A stretch of 64,000 bases of DNA from Minisyncoccota bacterium (GCA_041389005.1 JAWKSR010000004.1:7959-71958), one strand, 5' to 3'; positions 3,506 to 34,653 are shown, counted from the stretch's first letter. A program made the numbers and translations. Notes: generated by a model from the letters alone, not told the origin.

Positions 3506-3821
3506 CACAAAACAAACCCATCTCTAAGTGAGAGGGTTTGTTTTTATGTTACAATTGAGGATAGTTTGGATACTACCTGGGAATAAGACTGTATAGCTAT
3601 TAGATAATGGTGGGGGTTAGGAAACTATTGTTGGGTATAAAAACTCCTTTATACAGTCTGCTAGGGGATGGGAGAAATCCCCAGGACTATCCTCACCTGA
3701 GCAGGTTATTATTCGGTAGTTGTTCTAAAACACACCCAGGAATATAAATGAAATGCGCCATAAAATAACGATATGCACAGTTCCACAGGATAATAATAAT
3801 ACGTATAATGGGGTGAAAAAT

Positions 3822-4907: not shown

Positions 4908-4909
4908 CA

Positions 4910-10207: not shown

Positions 10208-10897
10208 TTACTCTTTAAAATTAGCATACGTCCTCTCCTTGTAATTGTAGATACCAGACCCAAAGGGGTTTTTGCTGTTCCCTGGTAGTATATTTTGTTT
10301 GGTTACATATCGGTCAGTTTCTATCGCTACACCAGGGTACACTATCAGTCTCCAATCGTCATTTTTTACTAGTGTTCGTGGAAAGGGAACTAAATGTTGC
10401 CTAATAATATGACTCACAACAACTTCTTCCAAAATAAAATTTTCTTGCGCTTCGGAGTATCCACGTTTAGTGACGTCTTCTCTAAGTGTTTTTTGCAATA
10501 CAACATCTTCACCCACTCGTTTTTTAAGTGAGGCAAATAAATCTTGGTAATTACTATTTAAAATTACGTAATCAATAGGGAGGAAATGAATAGCATTTGG
10601 AATCATTTCCCGTTTTTTTTCTATTAAATTACGTAATTCTCGGGCATGTTGTACCGTCTTACGATTGAGTTCCAATCGTTTTTCATAGGCAATGTCTTGC
10701 GTATTGAGGTACAGACCAGTGGTGTACAAAAGCACCACATCACTTGAATGAGATTCAAGTTTTTTTCCAAAGTAGCTAAGGAGTTCGTAACATTGAGCAG
10801 GGTCCTGATCAAAGCCATTTCCTAGCTTACTCATTGATAGCGGAACTACTATGTAACCGTCCCCGCTAATTCTATTAATATCAAAACCATCTTTCAT
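10208..10897 (-). CDS. hypothetical protein; candidate cyclodipeptide synthase (CDPS)-like enzyme (tentative)
   Basis: 229-aa ORF. Its start overlaps the ruvB stop (ATGA) and its stop lies 3 nt before the yebC start. By-eye resemblance to AlbC/YvmC blocks: VVPLS21, DVVLLYT, basic helix ELNRKTVQHARELRNLIEKK, IHF..NYQDL, F154ILEE158, IVY187P. Confidence 0.3.
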   Translation of the reverse strand: MKDGFDINRISGDGYIVVPLSMSKLGNGFDQDPAQCYELLSYFGKKLESHSSDVVLLYTTGLYLNTQDIAYEKRLELNRKTVQHARELRNLIEKKREMIPNAIHFLPIDYVILNSNYQDLFASLKKRVGEDVVLQKTLREDVTKRGYSEAQENFILEEVVVSHIIRQHLVPFPRTLVKNDDWRLIVYPGVAIETDRYVTKQNILPGNSKNPFGSGIYNYKERTYANFKE

Positions 10898-11879
10898 ATA
10901 TTTTGTATATGACTATACGCAGCAGCGCTGGCAACCCGACCACGCGGGGTGCGCTCTAGGAGTCCTTGGCGGATGAGGTATGGTTCAATCACATCTTCGA
11001 TGGTGGATTGCTCTTCACCGGTAGCGGCAGCGATGGTGTTAAGTCCTACCGGACCGCCGTTGAATTTCTCCACGATTGTCGTGAGGACTGCTCGATCGGG
11101 GGCATTAAGACCGCGCTCATCAATCTCTAAGAGCTCAAAGGTGCGCGACACAATCTCTGAAGAAAGTGACTCACCCTCTAATTGAGCTAAGTCCCGACAA
11201 CGTTTCAGTAGGTAGTTGGCGGTGCGCGGTGTGGCGCGACATCGCTTAGCGATGTCGCCAAGTACATTGGAGGTGGTTGCTACTTCGGTAAATTCGCTGA
11301 ACGTTCCAAAATCTGAGCAATCTCTCCTTCAGTATAGAATTCCAATCGAAATGTGCCGCCGGAAAAACGAGAACGCAGTGGTGAAGAGAGTAGGGAAATA
11401 CGAGTAGTGGCAGCAACGAGTGTAAACGGCGGTAGTTCTAGTTGTACCGTGCGGGCAGATGGACCTTTGCCAATAATGATGTCGAGCACTCCCGACTCCA
11501 TTGCTGGGTAGAGGACTTCTTCGATACTCTTAGAGAGACGATGAATTTCATCAATAAACAAAACATCACCAGGCGAGAGGTTGGTGAGTATGGCGGCTAA
11601 ATCACCAACGCGCTCAATAGCCGGACCAGACGTCGTGCGCATATTGGTGCCAAGGGTTTTAGCGATGAGATGGGCGAGGGTGGTCTTCCCGAGTCCTGGT
11701 GGACCATATAAAAGGACGTGTTCAGCCGCATGCCCGCGCTCGCGCGCGGCGGTAAGGAGAATACGAAGGTTTTCCTTGGTCTTACTCTGCCCGATGTATT
11801 CTTCCCAGGTGTGGGGACGGAGGGTCTGATCGAGGTTGCTGGCGTGATCCTTCTGTATCGGGGTGTTCGTGTCTGACAT
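10894..11879 (-). CDS. ruvB: Holliday junction branch migration helicase RuvB, frame-disrupted between about 11150 and 11290
   Basis: ORF 11280..11939 trimmed to MSDTNT.. (Walker [16 protein letters not shown]). ORF 10894..11151 holds the C-terminal winged helix (..[17 protein letters not shown]). The middle piece reads in another frame. Confidence 0.9.
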
Positions 11880-11968
11880 AGGTACATTATATAGATAAAA
11901 CAGCCCAACCGCCAAAAGGGAGTAAAACCCTTGACCCAACCCTTCTTCTCAAACAGTATAATAGGTAC

Positions 11969-12653: not shown

Positions 12654-14383
12654 CTAGACAACGTGTTCTGCGAAGCTGTCGTCAAAGTCTTTTTCATCTG
12701 GTTGTGGTGCCTCGCCGCGCAAGCGGGTGAGATCAACAACTCGTTGTAGCTCTTTCAATGAGGTGACGCCGCTGAGTACCTTTTCCATCCCATCCTCTGG
12801 CATGGTGGGGATACCTTGCTCACGCGCGGCTTCTAAGATGACATGTTCGCGCGGGTCTCGTAAAACTGCCTCTTCAACTTTTTTATCAATTCTAATCGCT
12901 TCAAAGACTGCTCGGCGTCCCTTAAAGCCAGTGTGCCGGCAGTGCTCACAACCAGCTGGTTCATACACGGTGATTGGTTCTGTAATTGGTGGTGGGGCAG
13001 GATGACCAGCGATAACTTTTTTAATCAACGTTACTTCTTCGGGAGTTGCCTGCCGCCCTTCTTTACAATGCTCACACAACATCCGCACCAGTCGCTGACC
13101 GAGAATGATATTTACTGAACTTCCAATCACTCGGTCATCTACACCGAGGTCAATGAGACGAGGGAACGCACCAACAGCACTATTAGTGTGAAGAGTCGAG
13201 AAGACAAGGTGTCCAGTCTGAGCGGCATGCACGGCTGTCTCTGCTACTTCACGATCGCGAATCTCACCAACCATGATGATATCGGGGTCTTGGCGCAGCA
13301 CTGCGCGCAAACCAGAGGCGAAGGTATAGTCTTCGCTCACTTGGGTCTGTACGATGTTATCGACTTTATACTCAACCGGGTCTTCAATGGTAATGATTTT
13401 TACTTCGGGCTTATGAGCTCGTCGCAAAACGCGTACAGCGCGGTGGTCTTACCAGAACCAGTTGGACCGGTGGTTATGATCATACCGTTTGGTCGTTTCA
13501 GTTCTTCCTCCATCACCCGGTACATGATGTCGTTGATACCGAGTTCATCCATGTTAAAACTCGCGACTGTTGGATCGAGTAAACGCATCACCACTGACTC
13601 ACCAATAGCACCGGGAATGACTGACGTACGGACTTCGATCTCTTTTTCAATCACATCAAAAGTGAAGCGTCCGTCTTGTGCCTCATCACGAACATTTAGC
13701 TTCACTCCCGCCAATAGTTTGATACGTGATACCAGGCGCTCGTATACTTTTTGTTCAAGTTCGATAACGTCATGCAACACACCATCAAGTCGGTAGCGGA
13801 TACGCACAGCAGTTTCTTCCGGTTCGATATGAATATCGGACGCTCCCAATGCCATCGCTCCGGCAAACAACACTTCCAGAGTGGCAGAAATACGGCGGGC
13901 GGTGTTGAGGGTACGGATGTTAACGAGTTGTTCTTTGATCTTTTCGCGATCAGTGAGGACTCCACGCAAACGCACAATTTCTTCTGGGTCAATATCAAGT
14001 ACCCCCTTTTTTACCGCCGTGGTCTGTTTCTGGTCAGCGTAGCGTTTATAGGCGTGTTCAAGGCTTTGGTTTGAACACATATAAATAGTCAGGTCCCATT
14101 CTTTAGCAAGCGTATCAAGGAGAGATTTGGTAGCAGGGTTGTTGGGGTTTCGGATAGCGACTGAAAGTTTTTTGTTCAGGGTCTCAAATGCCACCACACG
14201 GGCTTCACGGGCAACGGTCTCATCAATCACCAACAAAGCCTCTGGATTTATGGTTACACCATGGAGATTGATGTAGCGATGTCCATACTGGTTGGCAAGA
14301 GATTTCAGCAAGCTCTCCTCCTCGTTTTGGCGTAAGGCAGTTAAGCGTTTGTCTTCAAAAAAACGATCATCAAACTTCGGCAT
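12654..14383 (-). CDS. pilB: type IV pilus / type II secretion ATPase (PilB/GspE family), one frameshift at about 13400-13430
   Basis: ORF 13400..14482 trimmed to MPKFDDRFF.. (Walker A GPTGSGKTT). ORF 12654..13427 carries EDPVEY, the DPDIIMVGEIRD Asp box, the TGHLVFSTLHTN His box and a CxxC..CxxC cluster. The halves join if the run cgttttgcg gains one T. Confidence 0.85.
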
Positions 14384-14484
14384 GATAGGTTTATTGTAGC
14401 AAGGCAGTTGGCAGAATATGGACAGTTGCTCGCATAAATGGGCATGTACATTCGGCGCTGTATTCGGTGGTACAATGACCACAC

Positions 14485-14925
14485 ATGAGTGAATGGCAGG
14501 TTAATGATCTGACGCACATGCCCGCTGTGGTTGATGCTGTTCTGACTGGTCTTAATGAGATTAAGACCGATGGCGCTACCGTGCTCGCTCTTCATGGTGA
14601 TCTGGGGGCCGGAAAGACTACCTTTGTCCAATTACTCGCTCGGCAGTTGGGTGTTGAGGAGACGGTTACCAGTCCGACCTTTGTGGTGATGAAACAGTAT
14701 GAAACTACTCATGATTTTTCGAATCTCATTCATATTGACGCCTATCGGATAGAAACGGAAGAAGAGATGCGGGTGTTGGGGTTTGAGGGGTTACTTCAGT
14801 CACCGCAGACACTTATCTGTATCGAATGGGCAGAGCGGATAAAAAATTTGTTACCGACCCACACACACCACCTTACGTTTACTCCAGACGGTGAAACACG
14901 CACTGTCACCTTACGTCATGGCTAA
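14485..14925 (+). CDS. tsaE: tRNA t6A37 biosynthesis ATPase TsaE
   Basis: LHGDLGAGKTTFVQ..VTSPTFVVM motifs of the TsaE/YjeE family. Confidence 0.85.
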   Translation: MSEWQVNDLTHMPAVVDAVLTGLNEIKTDGATVLALHGDLGAGKTTFVQLLARQLGVEETVTSPTFVVMKQYETTHDFSNLIHIDAYRIETEEEMRVLGFEGLLQSPQTLICIEWAERIKNLLPTHTHHLTFTPDGETRTVTLRHG

Positions 14926-17302
14926 AAAAGAAACTAAAACTCTCGTACTTCTGGATGCTCACGCGATTTTGCACCGCGCGTATCACGCCTTGCCGGATTT
15001 TTCTTCACCCAGTGGTGAACCGACAGGTGCACTTTACGGCGTAGTGTCGATGCTTTTAAAGATCATTGAGGATTTAAAGCCAGATTACCTCGCTGCTTGT
15101 TACGATCTCCCAGAACCTACCTATCGGCACCACGCTTTCTCTGAGTACAAAGCTGGTCGCGCTAAAACCGATGAGAGTTTAGTGGCGCAGATAGAACGTT
15201 CACGCGATATTATGGCTGCTTTTGGCATACCGATATATGAGTACGCCGGCTTTGAAGCAGATGATATGCTCGGCACGATTGTGGAGCAAGTGAAAGACGA
15301 TAAAAATCTCACCACGATTATCGCTTCCGGTGATATGGACACCTTCCAGCTCATCAAAAAGAAGCAAGTACAGGTATACATGCAACGTAAAGGTTCTGAA
15401 GTGGTGCTGTACGACGAAGCGGCGATAAAAAAGAAGTTTGGTTTTGGACCGTTACTTACTATCGACTACAAAGGTATCCGTGGTGATGCTTCAGACAACA
15501 TCCCCGGTGTGCCAGGTGTGGGGGAGACGAGCGCTCTTAAACTTGTGAATACGTTTGGCACCATCGAAAAGATCTATACTGCTATCAAAAAATCTGACGT
15601 GGAAACGGTGGCAGAGAAAGCTGGTATCCAAAAACGGTTTGTGCAGTTGGTGGCTGACCATGAAGAAGAAGCACTTTTCTCCAAAGACCTCGCAACTATC
15701 CGCCGCGATGCCCCCATTAATTTTTCTCTTCCTAAAGATACGTGGCGCGAGCGTGTGGTGGTCGAGGACACCCTTAACCTATTTTCTGAACTCGGGTTTC
15801 GGACTTTAGCTACGCGAGTTAAACAGGTATTTGATATCGCTCCTGATGCGGAGATGGGTACTGCCACAGATTCGGTTGATGAGTATAAACTAAAACAAGC
15901 GGCAGTTATGTTGTGGTTGTTAGAATCAGACCGCACTAACCCCACTCTGACCGATGTATTAGAGTATGGCAGAGCGTATTTCAAAACCGAAACCTTTGCT
16001 GATACCTATGCTGCTTTAGAAAAAGCACTCGAAACACAAGAACTCACCGCCGTATTTAAAGACATCGAGACACCACTGATTGTGGTCATAGATGAGATTA
16101 ATGCTACTGGTATTAAACTCGATACGGTTTATCTCAAAGACCTCTCAAAAACACTCCATGCTGAGATCACTAAACTAGAGAAACGTATCTACACCCAGGT
16201 CGGTGAAGAGTTCAATCTCAATTCACCTAAGCAACTCGGGGTGGCACTCTTTGATACTCTTGGACTTAAACCAAAAAATCAAAAAAAGACTGCCACTGGT
16301 CAGCGCTCTACCCGGGAATCCGAACTAGAGAAAATGCGTGATGAGCATCCGATTATCGTTGATATATTACGCTATCGTGAGTTAGCCAAACTTACCTCAA
16401 CCTACGTTGATAGCTTGCCGCAGCAAATAGGAAAAGATGGGCGCATTCATACTACTTTGCTGCAAACTGGCACCACCACCGGACGCATGGCGAGTAAAGA
16501 TCCTAATCTCCAAAATATTCCCATTCGCACCAAGGAAGGGAAAGATGTGCGACGGGCGTTTGTCGCTACCCGCGGATACACGCTGGTGTCTATGGACTAC
16601 TCGCAGATTGAACTCCGCATTGCCGCTATCTTATCGGAGGACGAGAAGATGCTTGATATCTTTCGCTCTGGTCAAGATGTTCACCAAGGGGTTGCCAGTC
16701 AAGTCTTTGGTGTTGCTCCCACAGAAGTTACTAGTGAAATGCGTCGCCGGGCAAAGGTCATCAACTTCGGTATTCTCTATGGCATGGGAGTCAATGCCCT
16801 GCGACAAAATCTTGGAGCAGACACCAGTCGTGAAGAAGCCCAACAGTTCCTCGAAGCCTATTTCAATACCTTCACTCGTTTAGCCGAGTATTTAGAAGAA
16901 ACCAAAGCCTATGCCCGCCAACACGGCTACACACTAACGCTCTTTGGCAGGCGCCGACATTTCCCCGGTATTCAATCTGGCGCTCCATTCATTCGTGCCG
17001 CCGCTGAACGCATGGCTATAAATGCTCCTGTCCAAGGCACTGCTGCAGATGTGATGCGGATTGCTATGAATGATGTAGCCGCTCATATAAAAACCACCAA
17101 AGCCGAAAAAGAGGTTCGAATACTGCTACAAGTCCATGATGAATTATTATTTGAGGTAAAAACCACTGCCCTCAAAACCCAAATTCCAAAACTGCAGGAG
17201 ATTATGGAGTCGGCTTTGGCAGAAAAAGACACTCACGGGGTGCCGATCTTGGTCGATGTAGCTACCGGTAACAACTGGCGTGATCTAAAAGACTGGAAAT
17301 AG
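14918..17302 (+). CDS. polA: DNA polymerase I
   Basis: ORF 14891..17302 trimmed to MAKKETKTLVLLDAHAILHRAYHA (5'-3' exonuclease domain). Family A polymerase motifs: DYSQIELRIAA, RRRAKVINFGILYGM, QVHDELLFE. Confidence 0.9.
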   Translation: MAKKETKTLVLLDAHAILHRAYHALPDFSSPSGEPTGALYGVVSMLLKIIEDLKPDYLAACYDLPEPTYRHHAFSEYKAGRAKTDESLVAQIERSRDIMAAFGIPIYEYAGFEADDMLGTIVEQVKDDKNLTTIIASGDMDTFQLIKKKQVQVYMQRKGSEVVLYDEAAIKKKFGFGPLLTIDYKGIRGDASDNIPGVPGVGETSALKLVNTFGTIEKIYTAIKKSDVETVAEKAGIQKRFVQLVADHEEEALFSKDLATIRRDAPINFSLPKDTWRERVVVEDTLNLFSELGFRTLATRVKQVFDIAPDAEMGTATDSVDEYKLKQAAVMLWLLESDRTNPTLTDVLEYGRAYFKTETFADTYAALEKALETQELTAVFKDIETPLIVVIDEINATGIKLDTVYLKDLSKTLHAEITKLEKRIYTQVGEEFNLNSPKQLGVALFDTLGLKPKNQKKTATGQRSTRESELEKMRDEHPIIVDILRYRELAKLTSTYVDSLPQQIGKDGRIHTTLLQTGTTTGRMASKDPNLQNIPIRTKEGKDVRRAFVATRGYTLVSMDYSQIELRIAAILSEDEKMLDIFRSGQDVHQGVASQVFGVAPTEVTSEMRRRAKVINFGILYGMGVNALRQNLGADTSREEAQQFLEAYFNTFTRLAEYLEETKAYARQHGYTLTLFGRRRHFPGIQSGAPFIRAAAERMAINAPVQGTAADVMRIAMNDVAAHIKTTKAEKEVRILLQVHDELLFEVKTTALKTQIPKLQEIMESALAEKDTHGVPILVDVATGNNWRDLKDWK

Positions 17303-17303
17303 T

Positions 17304-18002
17304 ATGCTTCATCTTTTTTATGGTAACGATACAACAGCAGTGCGCGAAGCAGCGCACAAAAAGTAGACACGTTTACTGCTGATGGACACGAGATTAATTT
17401 AATTGATACGGATAATTTTGCGCCCGGGATTTTGACTGAACAAGCAACCGCCGAGTCTTTGTTTGGTAATAAAGTAGTCACCGTTCTTGATACTCCTTCG
17501 GCTAAAGCGGAGTACAGCACAGCAGTACATGAGTCTGTAGAAATGTTGGCAACTTCTGAACATCCTTTTGTGGTAATCGAGACTACACTGCTTGCAGCCG
17601 CTCTTAAGCCGTATAAAAAGTACGCCACTTCACTAGAGGAATACAAGACCGGTCCAGTTGGACGGTTTGATTTTTTTGCACTCACTGATGCACTGGCACG
17701 TAAAGATAAAAAGCAACTCTGGGTCTTGTTGCAAAACAGCCGCTTGGAGGGTATTCCAATTGAGGGTAGTTGGTATGTTGTGGTGGCAACTTAAAACCTT
17801 ACGGTTAGCACAGCAGACTAATTCAGCGTCTGAAGCTGGGATGAAAGAATTTCCTTACCAAAAAGCCACACGAGCGCTGACTAATTTTACAGACGGAGAG
17901 CTGACTCAGCTTTCTCATAGTCTTTTAACACTGCAACACGAGAGCCGGCTCGGGAATACCGATCTTGACCAAGCCCTCGAGCGCTGGGTACTGACAGTGT
18001 AG
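17304..18002 (+). pseudogene. holA: DNA polymerase III delta subunit-like (HolA), at least 2 frame changes (possibly assembly indels)
   Basis: MLHLFYGNDTTAVREAAHKK then a stop. It continues in ORFs 17432..17794 and 17658..18002 (..LWWQLKTLRLAQ..ELTQLSHSLLTLQHESRLG). ATG lies 2 nt after the polA stop. Confidence 0.55.
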
Positions 18003-19677: not shown

Positions 19678-21301
19678 ATGAACACCGCCCCTCTCTCATT
19701 AGTAACCTTAGTGCTACATTCGCAACTCATGCCGGTAGTGGCTTTTGCGAAGCGCCACGTACATCGTTCTGGAGTTTTCTTTGGTGACTTCGGTATCGTT
19801 ATCAACGCTTTCGGTGGTGTTTGTGTTAGGCGGGGGAGGAGATACGGGAGGAAGTGGAACAAGTAATACTACTATGGGACCCGATCAGGCACGTGCCGTT
19901 ACCGGACATCAGGCTTCCATCTGGTGACACGTGGTCAAATTCAGGCACAGGAGACAGTATCAGCGTAGAAAACACCTCCACCCCTTCCTCCTCACCTGGA
20001 ACGGAGGGAAGTTTGAACACGAGAACGATTTGTTTGCTAAACCCAACAGTGCCTTCGAAGAATACAAACAAGGACTCGAATCCTATCAGAAAGGTATCAC
20101 TGGCGATATCTATCTACTCAAAAATAATTTAGTACCACTGAAAATGGTGAACTGAAACTCAGATCCGAGAACTGGAACCAGAAGAATCATTCATTGACAC
20201 CTTCACCCTCAACGCCCTTGATCTTAAACCAACAGAGCATTTCATTGCTGACGGCAGCACCGACAGTCATATATCTTTGATACCAAGTGATCCATACTAT
20301 GACAGTGAAGTCACCCACCATTCTCACCGATTTTGCTCAACCACGGATACTGCATAACCAAGCAACCTAACCAAAAGAACAACTAAAGATACTACCCCTG
20401 CACACCAGTGATGAGCTCGTGCTCACCATCACACCAGCCAAGATTGAAACCGACAAAGACCTGTTCCTTTTGGTTGACTCTCACTACCGGGACTGGTCAC
20501 TCGGTGACAGGTGCCATTTTCTACGTGGGAGCGGATGCAGATAACTGGAAAACACTTGCCAATAACACCACCCTAGCTGCCGGTCTCATCCTTGCCCTCG
20601 GAGCGCTCCTCAGTGGCAATAATCCACTGGTAAACCATAAAAAAACTTTCTCAGTCCCGCACACCTATGCTGATGTGCCGGCTTCGCCCGCAACATCGCC
20701 AGAAACGTGCCTTCGGGAGAATTCTAAAGGTGAAATAAACGTCAGCACCAACTGCTTGATAATGGAAGCAGTGGTGGAAGTGGAGGTAGATTCGGGAAAT
20801 CTCGTCATCTCCGCTGGTTCAATGACCGCACAAACCTATCTCCAAACGCTGTTTCCTCGCTACGTACAAACGGCGCAGGAAGTGGTCCGCATTCCCGTGC
20901 ACTCATCCAATCAACGGTGACACAGACTTAGTCGTTCGCATCAAAGCCACCAAAAACACAAAGTGTGTGGAGCCACCCTCTTCTCTGGTGGTAAAACACC
21001 TGTGAGTTAATTACCATTAAAAATCACTAAAGCTACTCACGAACGTACTGGTACCGATCACAGCACCAATTTAACTAAGAAGAATGAGCAATTCTTGACA
21101 CCATCCCCGGTGATGTGGTTGATGTATCAGTACAAGATACCGTTCATCTGACACCAGACGTCACTGCACATTACTCACCACTCATGGTTTCTATACCAAG
21201 CTGTCTCAACCAGCTGCCTATCAGATCGGACCGCGCTGGCTCTCTCGATTGCACAAAGAAGATCGGAAATTGCTTAAGACGTTGCGGTTAGGGGTTTAAT
21301 C
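19678..21301 (+). pseudogene. large secreted/anchored protein gene, copy 1 of a duplicated pair, heavily frame-disrupted
   Basis: Nt 19720-21301 align with 22465-24113 at high identity. The differences are mostly 1-nt length changes in mononucleotide runs. Only short ORFs remain (e.g. 20408..20920). Confidence 0.6.
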
Positions 21302-22415: not shown

Positions 22416-24113
22416 TTGACCATACCGTATGAATCTAACTCTATTAACAAACACCATATTAAACTCGCAACTCATGCTAGTAGCAGCTTTTGCAAGCGCC
22501 ACGTGTGCATCGTTGGAGTTTTCTTTGGTGACTTCGGTATGTTATCAACGCTTTCGGTGGTGTTTGTGTTAGGCGGGAGGAGAACTTGGGAGAATCAAGT
22601 TCAGGTCTTCGCACTTCAGTTAGCGTAACCGCAGCGCGGCAGGCGCAAGATCTCAGGGAAGTCACTGGCACAGAAGCCTATGATGAACTCAAAGTGGTTA
22701 CAGTACTGGAGTCGTAGGTACCAGTGGTCTAGGTATCGGGTATGACACCGTTGGAGTAAATGTAGAAAGTGATTCAAACTCCACCCCCACTTCCTCCTCA
22801 CCTGGAATGGAAAACAGTTTACACACGAGAACGATTTCTTGTTTGCTAAACCCAACAGCGCCTTCGAAGAATACAAACAAAGGACTCGAGTCCTATCAGA
22901 AAGGTATCACTGGCGATATCTATCTACTCAAAAATAATTTAGTACCACACGAAAATGGTGAACTGAAACTCAGATCAAGAACTGGAACCAGAAGAATCAT
23001 TCATTGACACCTTCACCCTCAACGCCCTTGATCTTAAACCAACAGAGCAATTTCATTGCTGACGGCAACCTCAAACAGTCATATATCTTTGATACCAGAG
23101 CAGTCACATACTATGACAGTGAAGTCACCCACCATTCTCACCGATTTGCTCAACCACGGACACTGCATAACCAAAGCAAGCCTAACCAAAAAGAGTACCA
23201 ACTAAAGATACTACCCTGCACGCAGTGAGCTCGTGCTCACCATCACACCAGCCAAGATTGAAACCGACAAAGACCTGTTCCTTTTGGTTGACTCTCACTA
23301 CCGGGACTGGTCACTCGGTGAGCAGGTGCCATTTCTACGTGGGAGCGGATGCAGATAACTGGAAAAACACTTGCCAATAACACCACCACCCCTAGCTGCC
23401 GGTCTCATCCTTGCCTCAGGACGCTCCTCAGTGGCGGCAATCCACTGAAACGCCATAAAAAGCTTTTCTCAGTCCGCACACCTATGCTGATGTGCCGGCT
23501 GCGCCGCCAACATCGCCAGGAAACGTGCCTTCGGGAGAATTCTAAAGGTGAAATAAACGTCAGCACTAATTGCGATAATAACAACAGAGGCGGCGGTCGT
23601 TCGTTGGTCATCTCCGCTGGTTCAATGACCGCACAAACCTATCTCCAAACGCTGTTTCCTCGCTACGTACAAACGGCGCAGGAAGTGGTCCGCATTCCCC
23701 GTGCACTCATCCAATCGCTTGGTGACACAGACTTAGTCGTTCGCATCAAAGCCACCAAAAAAACACAAAGGTGTGGAGCCACCCTCTCTTCTCTGGTGAA
23801 AGTCAAAACACCTGAGTTAGTACCATTAAAAATCACTAAAGCTACTCACGAACGTACTGGTACCGATCACAGCACCAATTTAACTAAGAAGAATGAGCAA
23901 TTCTTGCACACCATCCCCGAAGTGATGTGGTTGATGTATCAATTTAAAGATGCACCTCGTTCAGCTGACACCAGACGTCACTACGTACTCACCACCAACG
24001 GCTTCTATACCAAACTGTCTCAACCAGCTGCCTATCAGATCGGACCGCGCTGGCTCTCTCGATTGCACAAGAAGATCGGAAATTGCTTAAGACGTTGCGG
24101 TTAGGGTTTAATC
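22416..24113 (+). pseudogene. large secreted/anchored protein gene, copy 2 of the duplicated pair, frame-disrupted
   Basis: Aligns with copy 1 at an offset of about 2745 nt. The longest surviving ORF is 23349..24104. Confidence 0.6.
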
Positions 24114-28669: not shown

Positions 28670-29139
28670 ATGGACGAGGTAGCCCACGCTGTTTTCTGGG
28701 AAGCGCCTGAACACCATCACTTTGAGAAAGGAAGTGACTGGTTTTGGGCGCTTGGAATCATTGCACTGTGTGGCGCAGTGGCAGCGTTCTTTTTGGGTAA
28801 TTTTTTGTTATCACTCCTCATCATCATCGCGGCGTGTGCGATGGCGCTCGTTGCCGCTCGTGATCCACGGGTGGTTGACTTTGCAGTTACTACTCGTGGT
28901 GTGACATTTGAAGAAATGCACTGTATATCCGTACAATACCCTCGAATCGTATGCTATAGATGAGACAGACCCACAAGGACCACCAGCTGATCATAAAATC
29001 AAAAACTTTTATGCCCCTTTTGATTATGCCTATTCCGGAAGAATATATTGATGAGATTGATGATATTTTGTCATCAAGCTAGAAAATGAAGAACTCGAAG
29101 AGCCTTAGCACACAAGTTTTAGAAACACTAGGCTTCTGA
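28670..29139 (+). CDS. small membrane protein, C-terminal third frame-disrupted
   Basis: ORF 28670..28963 (two TM segments). It continues in other frames as ..YNTLESYAIDETDPQGPP.. and ..IPEEYIDEIDDIL..FLETLGF plus a stop at 29137-29139. Confidence 0.45.
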
Positions 29140-30135
29140 CGTCCTTTTGTAGACAACACCACACCCAATCACATACGCTAAAATCAACTGAAAAATAATG
29201 GCATACCAAAGAAACATAATGTTTTGATACTGCAATAGATGTATCTGTATATGATGACCAACAATCATATGAACCACATAAATGTAGAATAGACCAACTG
29301 ATAGAGTGTGTATGAGACCATAGGCGTAGAGCCTTATTTTTCTCTGCGCGATAAGATGGACACTTCCAAAAGTGATAAGACAGACTCCAAGACTACCTAC
29401 TACCTGCAGGGTTGGGGGCTGAAAGAACAATACCCCATAAATTTTGAAAATCAAACGCATAGAGTAGTTGGTTTGCTATAGCAGACCAAAACACAAACAG
29501 GACTCCAACGCCAATAACCTGCAATGAGCGTAAGGCACCCACTCTTATACAGTGTATGGGCAAGTAGATATCCTATAGCTACCATCGAAAACCAAGGGAA
29601 GAGCGGCCAAAAGTGGATACTGTATGGTTCTCCAATAAGAGCTGCAACAAAATATAAACCACTGTGTTGTTCAAACATAATTCTCAATACGGGTGCGAGT
29701 ATAAGACTCAGTCCACCAAATAACAAAATTCCCCATGTACCTACAACTCGTAACCAGAGATACGCAATGACCATACTCAGCGCGAAAAATTGCAATACAT
29801 TCCACTGAAAGAAATAAGCCCCACCGAATGCTAATAGATTCATACCAAACCCGACAATACACAGTATGGATGCTCGCCTCAAAATATAAGCAATTGGAGG
29901 CAATGCCTTTTGTTGGTGTTGGTAAGAAAAACAGAAAAAAGTGCCGCCCTGCGGGCGGCTGGAAACATCATGACAAAAAAGGCAACGACACGAGGAATGT
30001 TAAACCAACCTTCTAATGCCGTTGATTGTGCGAATGGATGATACGACAGCCACCAGATAGTGTTATGTACAAAAATCATGGCCACCAAACAGAGAGCCTT
30101 AATAACATCCAGTGTGACCCATCTCGTTGTTCCAT
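29128..30135 (-). pseudogene. polytopic membrane acyltransferase-like protein (DUF1624 / acyltransferase-3-like), frame-disrupted
   Basis: ORFs 29128..29460, 29451..29903 and 29879..30088 are consecutive hydrophobic pieces. The N-terminus ..RWVTLDVIKALCLVAMIFVHN fits the DUF1624 pattern (R..LD..R/K..A...M...H). Confidence 0.45.
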
Positions 30136-30159
30136 AGCGAGTGTATGAGGCATTATAGT

Positions 30160-30891
30160 ATGATAGTGCTGAAAATGTTAAAGCCTTACCCTAGATTGCC
30201 TGTACAGACAATCATATCAAGAAGCGCCATGTGGTTTTTGGGGACTCGTATTTTTTCCACTCAGAATACTTGGTTTTGTTACACTTCAATCTCATTACAA
30301 TGAATTTGAAAGAAAGAATAGTCCATTACATTGTGCTTCAAATCACCGCCTCCAGCTGACCCACTAATAATTGGAATCGCTTTATTTCCTTTTTTAACGT
30401 ACTGTTTTACGCCACTGTCACCGTATGCCGCACCGTTACACCGTTTGGTAAAGCCCGGACAACGCTTGGCACGTAAACTTGGCTTTTTTCAGGTAGTTTA
30501 TTTCATCTTCAATGTGGTACGCATACCAGACAATACATCTTTTGAAGAAAAACTCGCCCCTTTGGTAAGTGTCGTAAAAAAAGGACACACAGTGTTAATT
30601 TTTCCGGAAGGTAAAAGTGTACGCGAAGATCATGTACAGCCTTTTAAACGCGGAATCGCCGAACTATATCGTCAGACTCGTGTGCCGGTTGTGCCATGTA
30701 CTGTCCATTATAAGAAGGGGTGGGCACTTCCTCGCGCCGTAGTAACGTTTGGTGCTCCACTCCATGTACCAAACATTATTCTTGAAAAGGGCGATTTAGA
30801 AGAAATAGCGGAGTATCTCAGGCGTGTAGTTGATGATCAGTACCAAAAAAGTACAATGAGCGATATAATCACCCGCTATGATACTCGCTGA
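30160..30891 (+). CDS. lysophospholipid (1-acyl-glycerol-3-phosphate) acyltransferase, PlsC/AGPAT family; N-terminal part frame-disrupted
   Basis: ORF 30331..30891 has FPEGKS (motif III) and VPVVPCTV (motif IV). The NH(x4)D motif is readable just upstream (ASNHRLQL / DPLIIGIAL) only by changing frame. Confidence 0.7.
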
Positions 30892-33311
30892 CTTTATTTT
30901 TCTAGCTTTGTGTATTGTTGGATCCCTGATACTGGCAACACAGCGCACTTTTTTATGGGTTTGGGCGTTCTTTTTCGGCAGTCTAGGAATACTTTGGCAA
31001 GTGACCGCTGGCACAACAACTCATTCAATTGTTGCCACGTTATTTTTTGTGTTAATGGCGGGTAGCCTTCTTTTTTCATTTGCACCGATACGACAGAGGC
31101 TTTTTAGCGCACCAATTTTCCGTCGCGCCCGCCACTATAAAGCCCATATATCAAACTTAGAAAAACAAGCCTTAGCAGCGGGCAGTGCTGGTTTCGAGAC
31201 AGGATTTTTTGAAGGGAAGCCGCGCTGGGATCAACTTCGTTCATATGAAATAAAACCATTTACGCCGAACGAACAGAAGTTTCTCAACGGACCAATAAAA
31301 AAATTTTGTGAACTTACACATGATTGGAAAATACGCCAATCGCGAGTGATTCCAGATTCTCTTTGGGAATACGCTAAACAAGAAGGTTTTTCTGGGCTTA
31401 GAGTACATAAAGAGTGGGGTGGAAAACAATATTCGTTTCAGGCTCAATCAATAATGTTGAGTAAAGTAGCAACTAGGGCTGTCGATAGTGCAATCTTTAT
31501 TGAGTTACCAACCTCGCTCTATCCTGATGAAATTATTAATGAGTATGGAACCGATGAGCAAAAAAAATATTATCTGCCACGTCTTGCCAAAGGCGAGGAA
31601 GTAGTCTCTTTTGCAGTTACCGGTGCACAGGGCTCTGATGTGGGGGGTATGACTGATGAAGGAGTGGTGACGTATGGTGAACATGAGGGTCAGCAGACAC
31701 TGGGCGTCAGAATAAACTGCAATAAACGCTACATTACCTTTGCCCCGAAAGCATCTTTGTTTGTATTGGCATTTTCTTTAAAAGACCCAGAAGGTCATTT
31801 AGGTTTAGGAGCGAACCTGGCATTACCCTCGCCCGTTGATACCAGCAACTCATGAGGCGTCACCGCCGAGAAGGCATTTTCCAATGGGACTTGCGTTTCC
31901 ACATGGTCCCATTGAAGCAACTGACATGTTCATACCGTTGGCGTGGATTATCGGTGAGCGCACAGGAGTCGGTCTGGGCTGGAAGATGATTATGCAATGC
32001 CTTTTCATGGGTCGGGCGTTAGCTCTCCCTTCTATTTCGGTGGGAAGCATTAAATTGGCACTTCTTACGACTTCTGCTTATGCCCGCGTGCGCAGACAAT
32101 TCGGTCTTTCTATCGACACCTATGAGGGTATTAAGGAATCGCTGGCTGAGCTTGTTGAACTGACGTATGTTTCTGAAGCTGCCCGATCTTTAACGGCGGC
32201 ATTGGTCGACAGTGGATCGCGCCCGCTTGCAGTGTCTTCACTGATGAAATATCGTATTACCGAAAATGCTCGTTCTGCCATTAACCATGCGCTCGATGTA
32301 CACGCTGGAAAAGGCGCTTGTGATGGCCCAGCAAACTACCTGCTCTCAGCATATAATGCTGTTCCGATTGGCGTTACGGTAGAAGGGGCAAACATTGTCT
32401 CGCGCTCAGTTATTACGTTTGCGCAAGGAGTGTTACAAAGTCATCCGTTTGTGCGTCCTGCCCTTGAAAGTTGCGAAAGTAAAAATTACAAACAAGATCT
32501 TGATGATTTTGACAGCGCCATTTCAGGACACATACAACTATTGCAGGCAAATGCAGCTCGTTCATTTTTACATGCAATATCAGGTGGCGTATTTGCGTCG
32601 TGCCCCCGCGATGTACCAAAAGATATACGTAACTGGTATCGCGCACTTTCTCGGTATACCAGTTCGTTTGCGTATCTCAGCGATGTGACAGTGATCACGA
32701 TGGGTCATGAACTAAAGAAAAAACAAAAATTAGGTGGTCGTTTAGCCGATGTTCTCGCGGAATTGTATATATTGTCAGCGGTGTTAAAACAGTACGAAGA
32801 GGATGGTTTCCCCGCCGAGGATTATCCTATTATTGAGCAGAGTTTAACCAACGGTTTGTATCGTATAGAAAAAAATCTTTTAGCGGTGATACGTAATTTC
32901 CCGCAACGCTTATTGCGCCCACTGCTATTTAGTATTGTATTTCCAGTCGGTGCGTGGCGACAACCTGCCAAGGACGCGCTTACAACAACCGTGGCAGATA
33001 GCGTCAGCGAAGCAACGCCCACACGTGCCCGGCTGACACGCCATGTGTTTATTTCAGATTCCTCCAATGATTCAGTACGACAGCTTGAAAACGCATTTGT
33101 AGCAGCTAACCATGCAGCGTCAGTTTACAAAAAAATACGCGCAGCGACCCGTGCCGGTCTCTTAAAGAAAGACCACACACAACTGCAAGTAGCTGAATCA
33201 AAAGGGATTATTACAAGCGAAGAGGCACACCTCTTACAAGAAGCGGAAAAAACCGCCAAAGTAGCTATTGCCGTAGATACATTTGAACAGGATGTGTACA
33301 GACCAGCCTAG
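30878..33311 (+). CDS. fadE: FadE-type acyl-CoA dehydrogenase (N-terminal TM segments, ACAD core, long C-terminal extension), frame-disrupted near 31800-31860
   Basis: ORFs 30878..31855 and 31836..33311. YGTDEQKKYYLPRLAKGEEVVSFAVTGAQGSDVGG, NKRYITFAP, RRHFPMG..PHGP, TVEGANIVSRS. Architecture and motifs match E. coli FadE as I recall it. Confidence 0.8.
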
Positions 33312-33564
33312 TTGTGTTTGTTGAATGCGTGTGCGAAAGGACTGCCAATAGTGGTAGTCCTTACCAAGGAACCTTCGTGTTCCTGTCGTGTGCTCCCGCA
33401 GGAAGTCTTTCATTACATGAACGGTACAGGTTGTCGGTATTTTTACTTCCTCCGCTCACAAAATACCAGACAACCTCTTCGACTCCTGGACGCAAGCAAA
33501 GCAGTTTGCTTGCTTGGCAGCACGAACAAAAATGGCACGCAAAGCGTGTTCATTTTTGTACTCG

Positions 33565-33636
33565 TGCTCCCGCCAGGAGTCGAACCTGGAGCGTCGGTAC
33601 CGCAAACCGATATTTTATCCATTAAACTACGGGAGC
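33565..33636 (-). tRNA. tRNA-Arg (anticodon GCG as read)
   Basis: Manual fold: acceptor GCTCCCG/CGGGAGC, anticodon stem TCGGT/ACCGA, loop TTGCGGT, T arm CCAGG-TTCGACT-CCTGG. Confidence 0.8.
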
Positions 33637-33641
33637 AGGTG

Positions 33642-33728
33642 CGGAGGGAGAGGGATTCGAACCCTCGATACGCGTAAACGTATGGCGGTTTTCAAGACCG
33701 CTGCCTTCAACCACTCAGCCATCCCTCC
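33642..33728 (-). tRNA. tRNA-Ser (anticodon TGA)
   Basis: Acceptor GGAGGGA/TCCCTCC, anticodon loop CTTGAAA, long variable arm, T arm GAGGG-TTCGAAT-CCCTC. Confidence 0.9.
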
Positions 33729-33949: not shown

Positions 33950-34330
33950 ATGCGATTTATGGGTATTGATTACGGCAGCAAGCGGGTTGGCATAGCCCTT
34001 TCAGATGAGTCTGGGAACATGGCGTTTCCTGAGACTGTACTGATAAATGACGATAAGCTCGCAAAAGCTATTGCGGATATTATTGAGACAAAACAGGTTA
34101 CTGAGATAGTGATTGGGCATTCGTTGCATACTGATGGAAGCGAAAATCCTCTACATACACGCGTTAAAGAGTTTATAACGGAGCTTACATTAGCAGTTGG
34201 TCTTCCAATCCATCTTGAGCCGGAACAGTACTCAACCCAAGAAGCCATTAGATTTCAAGGTCGCACTGATAAGACTGACGCTTCCGCTGCAGCGATTATA
34301 CTTAATAGTTTTCTGAATAAACGAACATGA
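33950..34330 (+). CDS. ruvX: YqgF/RuvX family putative pre-16S rRNA nuclease / Holliday junction resolvase-like protein
   Basis: ORF 33827..34330 trimmed to MRFMGIDYGSKRVGIALSD (typical YqgF N-terminus). Confidence 0.85.
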   Translation: MRFMGIDYGSKRVGIALSDESGNMAFPETVLINDDKLAKAIADIIETKQVTEIVIGHSLHTDGSENPLHTRVKEFITELTLAVGLPIHLEPEQYSTQEAIRFQGRTDKTDASAAAIILNSFLNKRT

Positions 34331-34653
34331 TTACCTACGAAGATTTTGCCAAATTAGAATTTACCATTGGAACCATCCAGTCAGTGGAAGTGGTTGAGGG
34401 TGCTGATAAGCTACTGCGTTTATTGGTAGATGTAGGCGAAGATAAACCGCGACAGATTGTTTCTGGCATCCGCGAATATTTTGAAGATCCGCGGTGGTTG
34501 GTTGGTAAACAGTGCCCGTTTGTGACTAATTTAAGGCCACGAGTGATTCGTGGTTTGGAGAGCCAGGGAATGATATTGGCTGCCAGTGCCAATGATGTCT
34601 TTGCCTTATTGATTCCGCATAATGAATTACCAGTTGGGACGAAAGTTTGTTAA
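34327..34653 (+). CDS. tRNA-binding domain protein (CsaA / Trbp111 / EMAP-II-like)
   Basis: 108 aa. F.K.D.RVG-type pattern: FAKLEFTIGTIQSVEVVEGADKLLRLLVDVGE..RQIVSGI. Confidence 0.8.
   Translation: MITYEDFAKLEFTIGTIQSVEVVEGADKLLRLLVDVGEDKPRQIVSGIREYFEDPRWLVGKQCPFVTNLRPRVIRGLESQGMILAASANDVFALLIPHNELPVGTKVC

What the first reader, a model, noticed from the sequence alone, without database searches (positions are those of the whole stretch)
29128..33311. Three consecutive acyl-handling genes, including an E. coli FadE-type acyl-CoA dehydrogenase, in a genome that looks otherwise minimal
Three genes lie side by side:
- A DUF1624/acyltransferase-3-like membrane protein (29128-30135, minus strand).
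- A PlsC/AGPAT lysophospholipid acyltransferase (30160-30891).
- An ~810-aa FadE-type dehydrogenase (30878-33311). It has N-terminal TM segments, the ACAD core (YGTDEQKKYYLPRLAKGEE, TVEGANI) and the long FadE-specific C-terminal extension. It overlaps the plsC stop.

FadE normally feeds beta-oxidation and needs an electron-transfer flavoprotein. No other beta-oxidation gene is visible here, and CPR-type organisms are generally thought to scavenge lipids. A coupled acyltransferase/dehydrogenase pair could therefore be a lipid-remodelling or desaturation module rather than a catabolic one. The function is inferred only from family membership.
Basis: partly seen in the sequence, partly recalled or inferred. 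Interest (0 to 1): 0.55.

Follow-up and report, generated by a model that had tools for sequence, protein, structure and literature searches.

The report
CPR acyltransferase–FadE lipid gene block
Three neighbouring lipid-handling genes in a tiny-genome (CPR) bacterium form a gene block conserved among its relatives, in which a fatty-acid-breakdown enzyme taken from Alphaproteobacteria now sits beside a lipid-building acyltransferase instead of the other breakdown genes; the broken reading frames here look like sequencing errors.

Summary
At 29128-33311 lie three genes: a DUF1624/HGSNAT-like membrane acyltransferase (-), a PlsC/AGPAT-family acyltransferase (+) and an 810-aa FadE-type acyl-CoA dehydrogenase (+) that overlaps the plsC stop.

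All three are interrupted by small indels, 2 to 5 per gene, with no nonsense codons. In the same window dnaA, dnaN, PBP1A, ruvB and pilB are broken the same way. The disruptions are therefore most likely assembly errors, not decay of this module.

The source is an NCBI MAG of Candidatus Paceibacterota. In relatives the block is intact and conserved. Every CPR-type FadE locus with upstream sequence has a PlsC-like gene upstream, and none has fadB or fadA. All 131 assessable non-CPR loci, mostly Hyphomicrobiaceae/Devosia, have fadE-fadB(-fadA).

In an NJ tree the CPR clade is monophyletic and nested within Hyphomicrobiales FadE (99/100). This suggests one old horizontal acquisition followed by a change of context.

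A second CPR architecture adds an acyl-thioester reductase, of two unrelated families at the same position, and a 7TM histidine kinase.

Best reading: a non-catabolic, membrane-bound acyl-CoA tailoring module. Its chemistry beyond family level is inferred only. Moderately interesting; a new variant of known kinds.

The parts
29128..30135 (-). DUF1624/HGSNAT_cat-like multi-pass membrane acyltransferase, transcribed divergently from plsC-fadE. It is split over three frames by 3-5 small indels.
   Evidence: PF07786 1.8e-09 on fragment 29454-29903. tblastn with the intact 340-aa orthologue of L002 gives three HSPs in frames -1, -3 and -2. Frameshift-aware alignment gives 47% identity and no in-frame stops. 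About 10 hydrophobic segments. The same divergent position is seen in L002-4/L093 and L163.
30160..30891 (+). PlsC/AGPAT-family (PF01553) acyltransferase, about 243 aa after repair. It has two 1-nt indels at about 30236 and 30352. The second splits the catalytic HX4D motif (NHRLQL|D).
   Evidence: PF01553 3e-10 on the 186-aa C-terminal ORF. 48% identity to the intact L002 orthologue over the full length, with no stops. The IFPEG motif is present. It scores below the TIGR00530 cut-off (35.9 < 102.95). It lies upstream of FadE in all CPR loci with enough upstream sequence.
30878..33311 (+). FadE-type long-chain acyl-CoA dehydrogenase, 810 aa after repair. It has N-terminal membrane helices, an ACAD core with the catalytic Glu (VEGANI) and an ACDH_C extension. 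In the deposited sequence it is split into ORFs 30878-31855 and 31836-33311.
   Evidence: Pfam. NCBIfam on the repaired protein: PRK09463 780 bits (cut-off 600) and PRK13026 771 bits (cut-off 608). End-to-end alignment with E. coli FadE. 63% identity to L001. 144 of 153 family-invariant residues are kept.
31813..31880 (+). Indel cluster inside fadE. The frame goes 0 -> +2 ('GITLA', 31819-31833) -> +1 (from 31836). A further compensated shift is possible around 31855-31880.
   Evidence: Direct reading of the sequence. Orthologues read CGITLALIPANHPGV and RGITLALVPSNHPGVEIGKRHFPMG. The window reads THEASPPRRHFP, while an alternative frame gives GVTAE. Invariant G327 is replaced by A exactly here.
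33564..33728 (-). tRNA-Arg(GCG) and tRNA-Ser(TGA). They mark the downstream boundary of the block. This lineage has no reductase or kinase after fadE.
   Evidence: ARAGORN and Rfam. tblastn with reductase and kinase queries is negative on the window.

Best explanation
This is a real gene block, conserved in Paceibacteria (CPR).

SHOWN:
- The large protein belongs by sequence to the FadE subfamily of long-chain acyl-CoA dehydrogenases. It has membrane-anchoring N-terminal helices, a VLCAD-like fold and the catalytic Glu.
- Its clade branches within Hyphomicrobiales FadE. This fits a single ancient horizontal acquisition.
- In CPR the gene lost its fadB-fadA partners. It is instead tightly linked, often with overlapping or nearly abutting stop and start codons, to an AGPAT-family acyltransferase.
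- Two architectures exist. In the window's subclade a DUF1624/HGSNAT-like membrane acyltransferase is transcribed divergently. In other subclades an acyl-thioester reductase and a 7TM histidine kinase follow fadE.

INFERRED mechanism:
- Scavenged long-chain fatty acids, once activated to acyl-CoA, are handled at the membrane.
- FadE oxidises part of the pool to trans-2-enoyl-CoA. It passes electrons to O2 or to an unidentified acceptor, because no ETF or respiratory partner is evident.
- The adjacent acyltransferase(s) use the acyl-CoA or enoyl-CoA pool to (re)acylate lysolipids or envelope acceptors.
- The function is therefore lipid tailoring or salvage rather than energy-yielding beta-oxidation.

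The frameshifts in this MAG are most likely indel errors of the assembly, not gene decay.
For: Identity:
- Pfam and NCBIfam and full-length alignment with E. coli FadE.
- The catalytic Glu aligns with the FEGTNEI motif of ACAD9.
- An AF2 model of the 62%-identical homologue has pLDDT 84.7. Its best PDB matches are VLCAD and ACAD9, with target TM-score about 0.8.

Conserved context:
- HGSNAT(-)/PlsC/FadE is intact in L002-4, L093 and L163.
- PlsC-FadE-Red-HK occurs in L005-10, L013, L014, L095 and L121. L096 shows FadE-Red-HK, with its upstream side cut by the contig end.
- 131 of 131 non-CPR loci have FadB downstream and 0 of 152 have PlsC. 0 of 20 CPR loci have FadB or FadA.

Phylogeny: CPR monophyly 99/100, and CPR plus Hyphomicrobiaceae excluding Devosia 99/100.

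Selection: 27 distinct CPR sequences below 90% identity retain about 150 invariant residues.

Reductase position: two unrelated reductase families occupy the same slot and are interleaved on the FadE tree. This argues for a pathway, not an accident.

Artefact reading:
- dnaA and dnaN are split over three frames.
- PBP1A, ruvB, pilB and a further gene are split.
- There are 8 or more indels and no nonsense codon in the block, mostly at short homopolymers.
- The 1.3-kb duplicate differs by 28 gaps, 15 of them 1 nt long.

Literature:
- CPR generally lack beta-oxidation and fatty-acid synthesis and are enriched in lysolipids (PMC10811913, PMC11809585, PMC7242380).
- The electron acceptor of FadE is unknown even in E. 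coli.
Against: - No biochemical data exist for any member of the CPR clade.
- Only 64 kb of this genome could be read, and only up to about 10 kb either side of fadE in relatives. fadA/B/D, etfAB or quinone genes elsewhere cannot be excluded.
- The acyl-CoA source (an acyl-CoA synthetase) was not found in the window.
- The PlsC-like protein may simply be the housekeeping PlsC, which would make the linkage less specific.
- trans-2-Enoyl chains are not a commonly reported membrane constituent.
- The tree is NJ with one outgroup, and the sampling is biased towards sequences similar to the query.
- Without reads, the indels cannot be proven to be artefacts.
Confidence: 0.5

Rival explanations
1. 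Ordinary fatty-acid catabolism. FadE feeds a normal beta-oxidation cycle whose other genes (fadD, fadB, fadA, etfAB) lie elsewhere in the genome. The adjacency to plsC would have no pathway meaning.
For: The protein is a full-length FadE-subfamily member, 40-46% identical to enzymes that sit in fadE-fadB-fadA operons. One Parcubacterium with a complete beta-oxidation and ETF set has been described, although with short GDH/SBCAD-type ACADs (PMC5220378). Only part of each genome was visible here.
Against: - None of the 20 CPR loci (fadE flanked by up to about 10 kb each side, less where a contig ends) has fadB or fadA, whereas the non-CPR loci have it in 131 of 131 cases.
- The window's 64 kb has no ECH, 3HCDH, thiolase, ETF or AMP-binding gene.
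- The PlsC linkage persists across lineages only 46-62% identical, often with overlapping or abutting genes.
- CPR surveys report no beta-oxidation.
Confidence: 0.15
2. Genuine pseudogenes. In this organism the acyl module, along with many other genes, is decaying, and the frameshifts are real mutations.
For: All three genes carry multiple frameshifts. Indels cluster in the first 32 kb of the window, while 33-64 kb looks intact. NCBI deposited the FadE halves as two separate proteins. One indel is a +2 event not typical of simple homopolymer error.
Against: - Essential single-copy genes (dnaA, dnaN, PBP1A, ruvB) are broken at equal or higher density. That is incompatible with a population abundant enough to assemble.
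- There are no nonsense codons among 8 or more lesions.
- FadE keeps 144 of 153 invariant residues, within the range of intact homologues (0-10 losses).
- Many lesions sit at short homopolymers.
Confidence: 0.15
3. The module makes aldehyde- or alcohol-derived lipids, such as ether, vinyl-ether or wax-type lipids, or a 2-alkenal-derived product. FadE and a thioester reductase act in series on acyl-CoA. The AGPAT-type enzyme acylates the glycerol backbone. The window's lineage would then be a reduced version, or would use a reductase encoded elsewhere.
For: In architecture B an acyl-thioester reductase always follows fadE. It comes from two unrelated families: NAD_binding_4/TIGR01746, and AAR/PigE-N-like. 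FAR plus AGPAT/GNPAT combinations are the hallmark of myxobacterial ether-lipid genes, ElbD and MXAN_1675 (PMC9131029). The 7TM kinase is translationally coupled to the reductase.
Against: No reductase or kinase is found in the window or in architecture-A loci. No AGPS, PlsAR or CarF homologue was seen. ACAD chemistry does not itself form ether bonds. No lipid data link Paceibacteria to ether lipids; the Probst lipidomics reports lysolipids and unsaturated acyl lipids.
Confidence: 0.15
4. Adjacency without functional coupling. The PlsC-like gene is the housekeeping lysophosphatidate acyltransferase, and FadE merely inserted next to it after transfer and hitch-hiked.
For: CPR such as Nealsonbacteria carry plsC and plsY as their core lipid genes. 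I did not test whether a second plsC exists in these genomes.
Against: The pair stays together while the flanks differ completely between lineages. The PlsC-like proteins score far below the PlsC equivalog-type cut-off. Intergenic distances run from -14 to +29 nt. Extra lipid-related genes (reductase, HGSNAT-like) are recruited to the same block.
Confidence: 0.05

Closest known systems
E. coli FadE and the NCBIfam acyl-CoA dehydrogenase subfamilies PRK09463 / PRK13026 (Pfam ACDH_C, PF09317)
   Same: Collinear over about 800 aa: N-terminal hydrophobic helices, ACAD core, catalytic Glu in xVEGANI, and the about 280-aa ACDH_C extension. The repaired protein passes both subfamily cut-offs.
   Different: It scores below the E. 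coli-specific model (711 < 1300). It is not in a fad regulon or fadBA context. The host is a CPR bacterium without visible beta-oxidation or respiratory partners. CPR-specific motif changes occur, for example LPTSLYPDE against VPNSLGPGE.
Hyphomicrobiaceae/Devosia fadE-fadB-fadA(-CMAS) operons
   Same: These are the closest non-CPR sequences (40-46% identity). The CPR clade branches inside this group.
   Different: There FadE is followed by the multifunctional FadB and the thiolase in 131 of 131 loci and never by or after a PlsC-like gene. In CPR the reverse holds.
Mitochondrial VLCAD / ACAD9
   Same: Best structural matches to the model. Both are long-chain ACADs with an extra C-terminal helical domain and membrane association.
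   Different: About 20% identity. VLCAD has no N-terminal transmembrane helices and a shorter C-terminal domain, and it uses ETF. ACAD9 moonlights in complex I assembly.
PlsC/AGPAT acyltransferases (PF01553), including the acyltransferase domain of Aas
   Same: HX4D and FPEG motifs and a Pfam family-level hit.
   Different: It fails the TIGR00530 cut-off. The acceptor and the acyl donor are unknown. It is always paired with FadE in this clade.
Myxobacterial ether-lipid genes (ElbD; MXAN_1675 FAR-GNPAT fusion with AGPS MXAN_1676)
   Same: They combine an acyl-thioester reductase, an AGPAT/GNPAT-type acyltransferase and a flavoenzyme in one locus. This resembles CPR architecture B.
   Different: The flavoenzyme here is an ACAD, not AGPS. 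There are no ACP or CoA-ligase domains. The window's own lineage lacks the reductase. This is an analogy only, with no homology of the whole system.
HGSNAT / DUF1624 (PF07786) transmembrane acyl-CoA-dependent acyltransferases
   Same: Pfam hit, multi-pass topology and the conserved N-terminal R-W-x-x-L-D motif region.
   Different: Bacterial members are uncharacterised. Here the gene is linked to plsC-fadE in only one CPR subclade.

Membership tests
FadE-type acyl-CoA dehydrogenase (PRK09463/PRK13026; PF09317) | Domain order: Acyl-CoA_dh_N, middle beta domain, Acyl-CoA_dh_1, ACDH_C | tested here: met
   Pfam finds N (7.4e-16), dh_1 (2e-12) and ACDH_C (4.7e-80). The middle domain was not called in the window pieces because the indel cluster lies in it. 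It is weak or present in relatives.
FadE-type acyl-CoA dehydrogenase (PRK09463/PRK13026; PF09317) | Whole-protein score above NCBIfam's curated cut-off | tested here: met
   Repaired 810-aa sequence: 780.3 (cut-off 600) and 771.2 (cut-off 608). Neither ORF alone passes (254.9/266.3 and 494.2/475.3).
FadE-type acyl-CoA dehydrogenase (PRK09463/PRK13026; PF09317) | Catalytic glutamate base in the xEGxNxI motif | tested here: met
   E502 in TVEGANIV is invariant in 22 and 28 aligned sequences. It aligns with FEGTNEI of ACAD9. That this Glu is the catalytic base is established knowledge of the ACAD family.
FadE-type acyl-CoA dehydrogenase (PRK09463/PRK13026; PF09317) | Uninterrupted reading frame | tested here: not met
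   Two frameshifts at about 31813-31836 in the deposited sequence. They are judged to be probable assembly errors.
E. coli FadE proper (NF038187) | Score at or above 1300 on the E. coli-type model | tested here: not met
   711.5 bits.
Beta-oxidation (fad) system | Co-occurrence with enoyl-CoA hydratase/3-hydroxyacyl-CoA dehydrogenase and thiolase | tested here: not met
   None in the 64-kb window or in the 20 CPR loci. Present in 131 of 131 non-CPR loci. Whole genomes were not searchable.
Beta-oxidation (fad) system | Electron acceptor (ETF/ETF-QO or quinone pool) | not testable with these tools
   No ETF in the window. The acceptor is unknown even for E. coli FadE.
PlsC / AGPAT (PF01553; TIGR00530) | Pfam family hit above the gathering score | tested here: met
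   40.5 bits against 23.
PlsC / AGPAT (PF01553; TIGR00530) | Catalytic HX4D motif and FPEG motif | tested here: met
   NHRLQL|D is restored by adding one G at about 30352. IFPEGKS is intact. In the raw sequence the HX4D motif is split by the frameshift.
PlsC / AGPAT (PF01553; TIGR00530) | Score above the TIGR00530 1-acylglycerol-3-phosphate acyltransferase cut-off | tested here: not met
   35.9 < 102.95 for the repaired protein. Orthologues score 38 and 62.
HGSNAT_cat / DUF1624 (PF07786) | Pfam hit above the gathering score and a multi-pass membrane topology | tested here: met
   37.9 bits against 22 on the middle fragment. The intact orthologue scores 42.1. About 10 hydrophobic segments.
Ether-lipid type module (FAR + AGPAT/GNPAT + flavoenzyme) | Acyl-thioester reductase encoded in the block | tested here: not met
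   Absent from the window and from architecture-A loci. Present in architecture-B relatives.
Ether-lipid type module (FAR + AGPAT/GNPAT + flavoenzyme) | AGPS, PlsAR or CarF homologue | not tested
   None of these was used as a query. No FAD_binding_4-type protein appeared in the Pfam scans of the window.

The most novel reading that the evidence does not exclude
Paceibacteria (CPR) took a FadE from Alphaproteobacteria and repurposed it, together with a dedicated AGPAT-type acyltransferase, into a previously undescribed pathway. Many lineages add an acyl-thioester reductase and a membrane 7TM kinase. The pathway would chemically tailor scavenged host fatty acids into 2-enoyl-, aldehyde- or ether-type membrane lipids, using O2 or a non-ETF acceptor. 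It would be a lipid-modification capacity in organisms thought only to recycle host lipids.
Probability: 0.25. Interest if true: 0.7.

Novelty: new variant of a known kind. Interest (0 to 1): 0.45.

Why it matters
CPR/Patescibacteria lack fatty-acid synthesis, and how they build and adjust their membranes is an open question. Lysolipids are enriched in them (PMC7242380).

A FadE-type dehydrogenase that was horizontally acquired, kept under selection, stripped of its beta-oxidation partners and wired to acyltransferases would be a concrete, testable candidate for active lipid tailoring in these symbionts. In sister lineages the same block also carries thioester reductases and a membrane sensor kinase.

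The block also offers a natural experiment on the long-standing question of what FadE's electron acceptor is, because these hosts have no obvious ETF or respiratory chain.

For this particular window the practical message is more mundane. The MAG contains many indel errors in its first 32 kb, and its gene calls there, including two 'proteins' made from one fadE, should not be taken at face value.

Tried and rejected
- Exact-sequence look-ups to find the source contig or an independent assembly covering the frameshift sites found nothing on record (P0002 and the 108-aa ORF 34327-34653). The only near-identical fragments elsewhere are short PilM pieces. The indels could therefore not be checked against another assembly.
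I solved this by masking stops with X.
I modelled the 62%-identical intact homologue P0001 instead.
- The genome-contig scan was flooded by Hyphomicrobiales and returned only 2 CPR genomes.
- Literature searches for a described CPR FadE or a plsC-fadE pairing found none. The Parcubacterium beta-oxidation paper concerns short GDH/SBCAD-type ACADs with ETF. One search was uninformative.
- I considered that the low-ORF regions of the window might be rRNA or an alternative genetic code. Rfam finds only tRNAs, and the breaks are frameshifts, not in-frame stops.
- I considered ACAD9-like loss of catalysis and rejected it, because the catalytic Glu and about 150 residues are invariant.
- I considered FadE acting as an AGPS analogue or as a plasmanyl desaturase. 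I rejected this on chemical grounds as an inference; no test was possible.

Full report
**1. What is in the sequence**

The ORF map of 27-36 kb and Pfam confirm three adjacent genes.

- Minus strand, 29128-30135: fragments of a DUF1624/HGSNAT_cat membrane protein (PF07786, 1.8e-09).
- Plus strand, 30160-30891: an AGPAT/PlsC-family acyltransferase (PF01553, 3e-10).
- Plus strand, 30878-33311: a FadE-type acyl-CoA dehydrogenase. Acyl-CoA_dh_N (7.4e-16) lies in ORF 30878-31855. Acyl-CoA_dh_1 (2e-12) and ACDH_C (4.7e-80) lie in ORF 31836-33311.
- The fadE ATG overlaps the plsC stop by 14 nt.

None of the three is an intact ORF.

- Direct reading shows the fadE frame going 0 -> +2 (peptide GITLA, 31819-31833) -> +1 (from 31836).
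- A frameshift-aware protein-to-DNA alignment against intact orthologues finds 2 indels in fadE, 2 in plsC and 3-4 in the DUF1624 gene.
- In plsC the indel at about 30352 splits the HX4D motif. Adding one G restores NHRLQLD.
- Read directly from the sequence, the DUF1624 gene probably also lost a G right after its ATG.
- After repair there is no in-frame stop in any of the three genes.

**2. Where the window comes from, and whether the frameshifts are real**

- The C-terminal FadE ORF is 100% identical to an NCBI protein of a 'Candidatus Paceibacterota bacterium' MAG, on an 81,407-nt contig.
- NCBI lists the two halves as separate proteins, MEZ4200502.1 and MEZ4200503.1.

The frame breaks are not special to the acyl genes.

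- With stops masked, Pfam finds Bac_DnaA in two frames, Bac_DnaA_C in the third, and the three DnaN domains spread over two frames at 2.3-5.2 kb.
- PBP1A is split inside its transglycosylase domain at about 7048. ruvB keeps only its N-domain ORF. The PilB/T2SSE ATPase is split at about 13.4 kb. A further gene at 17.3-18.0 kb is split.
- ORF coverage is poor at 2-5.2, 20-23.3 and 26-30.3 kb. The ORFs scanned from 33 kb onwards show no split genes.
- Most lesions sit at short homopolymers.
- A 1.3-kb segment duplicated 2.8 kb downstream differs from its copy by 95 substitutions and 28 gaps. Fifteen of the gaps are single bases, typically in A, C, G or T runs.
- The window FadE retains 144 of the 153 residues that are invariant in 21 other CPR homologues. 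That is within the 0-10 losses shown by intact members. One of its deviations (G327A) lies in the indel cluster.

Essential replication genes could not be multiply frameshifted in an organism abundant enough to assemble. I therefore judge the disruptions to be indel errors of the assembly (about 0.8). Without reads this stays an inference. Attempts to find an independent assembly failed.

**3. The protein**

- The repaired 810-aa protein aligns end to end with E. coli FadE, including the N-terminal hydrophobic segments and the C-terminal extension.
- It passes NCBIfam's curated cut-offs for the two FadE-type subfamilies: 780 bits against 600, and 771 against 608. It does not pass the E. coli-specific model (711 < 1300).
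- Glu502 in TVEGANIV is invariant. It aligns with the catalytic Glu motif FEGTNEI of ACAD9.
- No FadE-type structure is solved.
- An AlphaFold2 model of the 62%-identical intact homologue P0001 has pLDDT 84.7 and pTM 0.87. It has four N-terminal helices (2-85). It matches VLCAD and ACAD9 best, over about 620 columns with target TM-score about 0.8.
- By sequence and fold this is a membrane-anchored long-chain ACAD.

**4. Comparative context: the main result**

Homologues fall into two groups.

- Sequences 46-62% identical, which where named come from Patescibacteria: Azambacteria, Parcubacteria and Paceibacterota.
- Sequences 40-46% identical, which where named come mostly from Hyphomicrobium and Devosia.

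I fetched 172 loci and classified their neighbours with phmmer.

| Locus group | FadB downstream | PlsC-like gene |
|---|---|---|
| Non-CPR loci | 131 of 131 with at least 1.5 kb downstream, usually followed by the thiolase | 0 of 152 |
| CPR-type loci (about 10 distinct organisms including the window) | FadB/FadA in 0 of 20 | Upstream on the same strand in all with upstream sequence |

- Gaps between the CPR PlsC-like gene and fadE run from -14 to +29 nt. The exception is L014, where two 7TM genes intervene.
- Architecture A: DUF1624/HGSNAT(-) | PlsC FadE. It is seen in the window, L002-4/L093 and L163; L094 is cut.
- Architecture B: PlsC-FadE-reductase-HisKA_7TM kinase. It is seen in L005-7/L013 (Azambacteria), L008/9, L010, L014 (Parcubacteria Gr01-1014_33), L095 and L121. 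L096 shows FadE-reductase-kinase, but its upstream side is cut by the contig end.
- The kinase start overlaps the reductase stop.

The 'reductase' belongs to two unrelated families.

- NAD_binding_4/thioester-reductase type: PF07993 1.6e-47, TIGR01746 4e-38. Found in L008, L014, L095 and L096.
- An AAR/PigE-N-terminal-like type: NF053554 6e-37, TIGR04058 2e-17. Found in L005, L010 and L121.
- The two types are interleaved on the FadE tree.
- This non-orthologous displacement at a fixed position argues that an acyl-thioester-to-aldehyde step belongs to the pathway in those lineages.
- The window has no reductase, kinase, FadB or FadA homologue. It has no ETF, ECH, 3HCDH, thiolase or AMP-binding protein among 50 further ORFs scanned.

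**5. Origin**

- I built an NJ tree rooted on E. coli FadE, from 137 sequences and 831 columns.
- A bootstrapped subset of 59 sequences with 100 replicates gives three results.
  - CPR monophyly: 99.
  - CPR plus Hyphomicrobiaceae-type, excluding Devosia-type: 99.
  - Alphaproteobacteria monophyletic to the exclusion of CPR: 1.
- This fits one old transfer from a Hyphomicrobiales-like donor into Paceibacteria. Diversification (27 sequences below 90% identity) and loss of the fadBA context followed.
- Caveats: a distance method, a single outgroup, and sampling biased towards the query.

**6. Mechanism**

Shown: family membership, membrane anchoring, a retained catalytic residue, conserved operonic linkage to an AGPAT-type acyltransferase, and absence of beta-oxidation partners nearby.

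From the literature:

- CPR generally lack fatty-acid synthesis and beta-oxidation and are enriched in lysolipids (PMC7242380, PMC10811913, PMC11809585).
- No ETF partner of E. coli FadE is known. A direct membrane route or leakage to O2 giving H2O2 has been proposed (PMC9329746, PMC11495604).

Inferred:

- Scavenged long-chain acyl-CoA is dehydrogenated to trans-2-enoyl-CoA at the membrane.
- The acyl/enoyl-CoA pool is used by the neighbouring acyltransferase(s) on lysolipid or envelope acceptors.
- In architecture B part of the flux is reduced to aldehyde.
- The class I ribonucleotide reductase in the window suggests exposure to oxygen, which makes O2 a conceivable acceptor.

The resemblance of architecture B to the FAR plus AGPAT/GNPAT plus flavoenzyme sets of myxobacterial ether-lipid synthesis (PMC9131029) is an analogy, not homology of the system.

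**7. Verdict**

- The non-catabolic interpretation is supported by synteny and phylogeny but not by biochemistry.
- The frame disruptions are probably artefacts.
- I found no description of this CPR plsC-fadE block in the searchable literature. That is a limit of the library, not proof of novelty.
- It is a new variant (context and host) of known enzyme kinds, of moderate interest.

Noticed in passing
window 2300-5200 (+): dnaA and dnaN are each spread over two or three reading frames, with many small indels. Bac_DnaA lies in frames 0 and 1, Bac_DnaA_C in frame 2, and the DnaN domains in frames 0 and 1.
   Followed up: yes
window 5210-7458 (-), 10897-11939 (-), 12657-14482 (-), 17327-17999 (+): PBP1A is split inside the transglycosylase domain at about 7048. 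ruvB, the PilB/T2SSE ATPase (junction about 13.4 kb) and a 240-aa conserved protein are each split by a frameshift.
   Followed up: partly
window 19970-21256 and 22776-24070: A roughly 1.3-kb segment is directly duplicated 2.8 kb downstream. The copies differ by 95 substitutions and 28 gaps, 15 of them single bases and mostly in homopolymers. The downstream copy carries an intact 251-aa ORF (23349-24104) of unknown function, and the upstream copy is fragmented.
   Followed up: partly
window 61464-62774 (+) and 62814-64000 (+): Class I ribonucleotide reductase. The small (radical-generating) subunit carries an N-terminal ATP-cone (PF03477 plus PF00268), an uncommon arrangement. An O2-dependent RNR suggests this CPR organism sees oxygen.
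   Followed up: no
L005/L010/L121 versus L008/L014/L095/L096, the gene directly after fadE: Two unrelated acyl-thioester reductase families (AAR/PigE-N-like and NAD_binding_4/FAR-like) occupy the same operon position. They are interleaved on the FadE tree, which indicates non-orthologous displacement.
   Followed up: partly
L014 2904-4531: Two tandem paralogous multi-pass membrane proteins of about 270 aa sit between the PlsC-like gene and fadE in Parcubacteria Gr01-1014_33. They look like stand-alone 7TM sensor modules. They were not scanned against Pfam.
   Followed up: no
window 12657-17302; L005, L008, L094: In several relatives the plsC-fadE module lies next to tsaE-polA (and T2SSE). In the window T2SSE (ends 14482) abuts tsaE-polA (starts 14485) with no module there, and the module sits about 13.6 kb downstream of polA. 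The block has moved.
   Followed up: partly
window 31855-31880: The window reads THEASPPRRHFP where all relatives, including E. coli, read (N/T)(H/T)PGVxxxxRHFP. An alternative frame gives GVTAE, which suggests a further compensated pair of indels inside fadE.
   Followed up: partly
window 53697-55928 (+): A 743-aa protein with an fn3 domain and two Laminin_G_3/ConA-like lectin domains, probably a cell-surface adhesin. It is preceded by five ORFs (48.5-53.1 kb) with no Pfam match.
   Followed up: no
window 41505-42230 (+): Ribosomal protein L19 is called as 241 aa. The L19 domain covers only residues 41-132, so there is a long C-terminal extension or an ORF-calling artefact.
   Followed up: no
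L008/L009, gene directly upstream of the PlsC-like gene: A 158-aa DoxX-like membrane protein (weak PF07681 hit) precedes plsC-fadE in one lineage. DoxX-family proteins are linked to membrane redox complexes, so it might be relevant to the missing electron acceptor.
   Followed up: no
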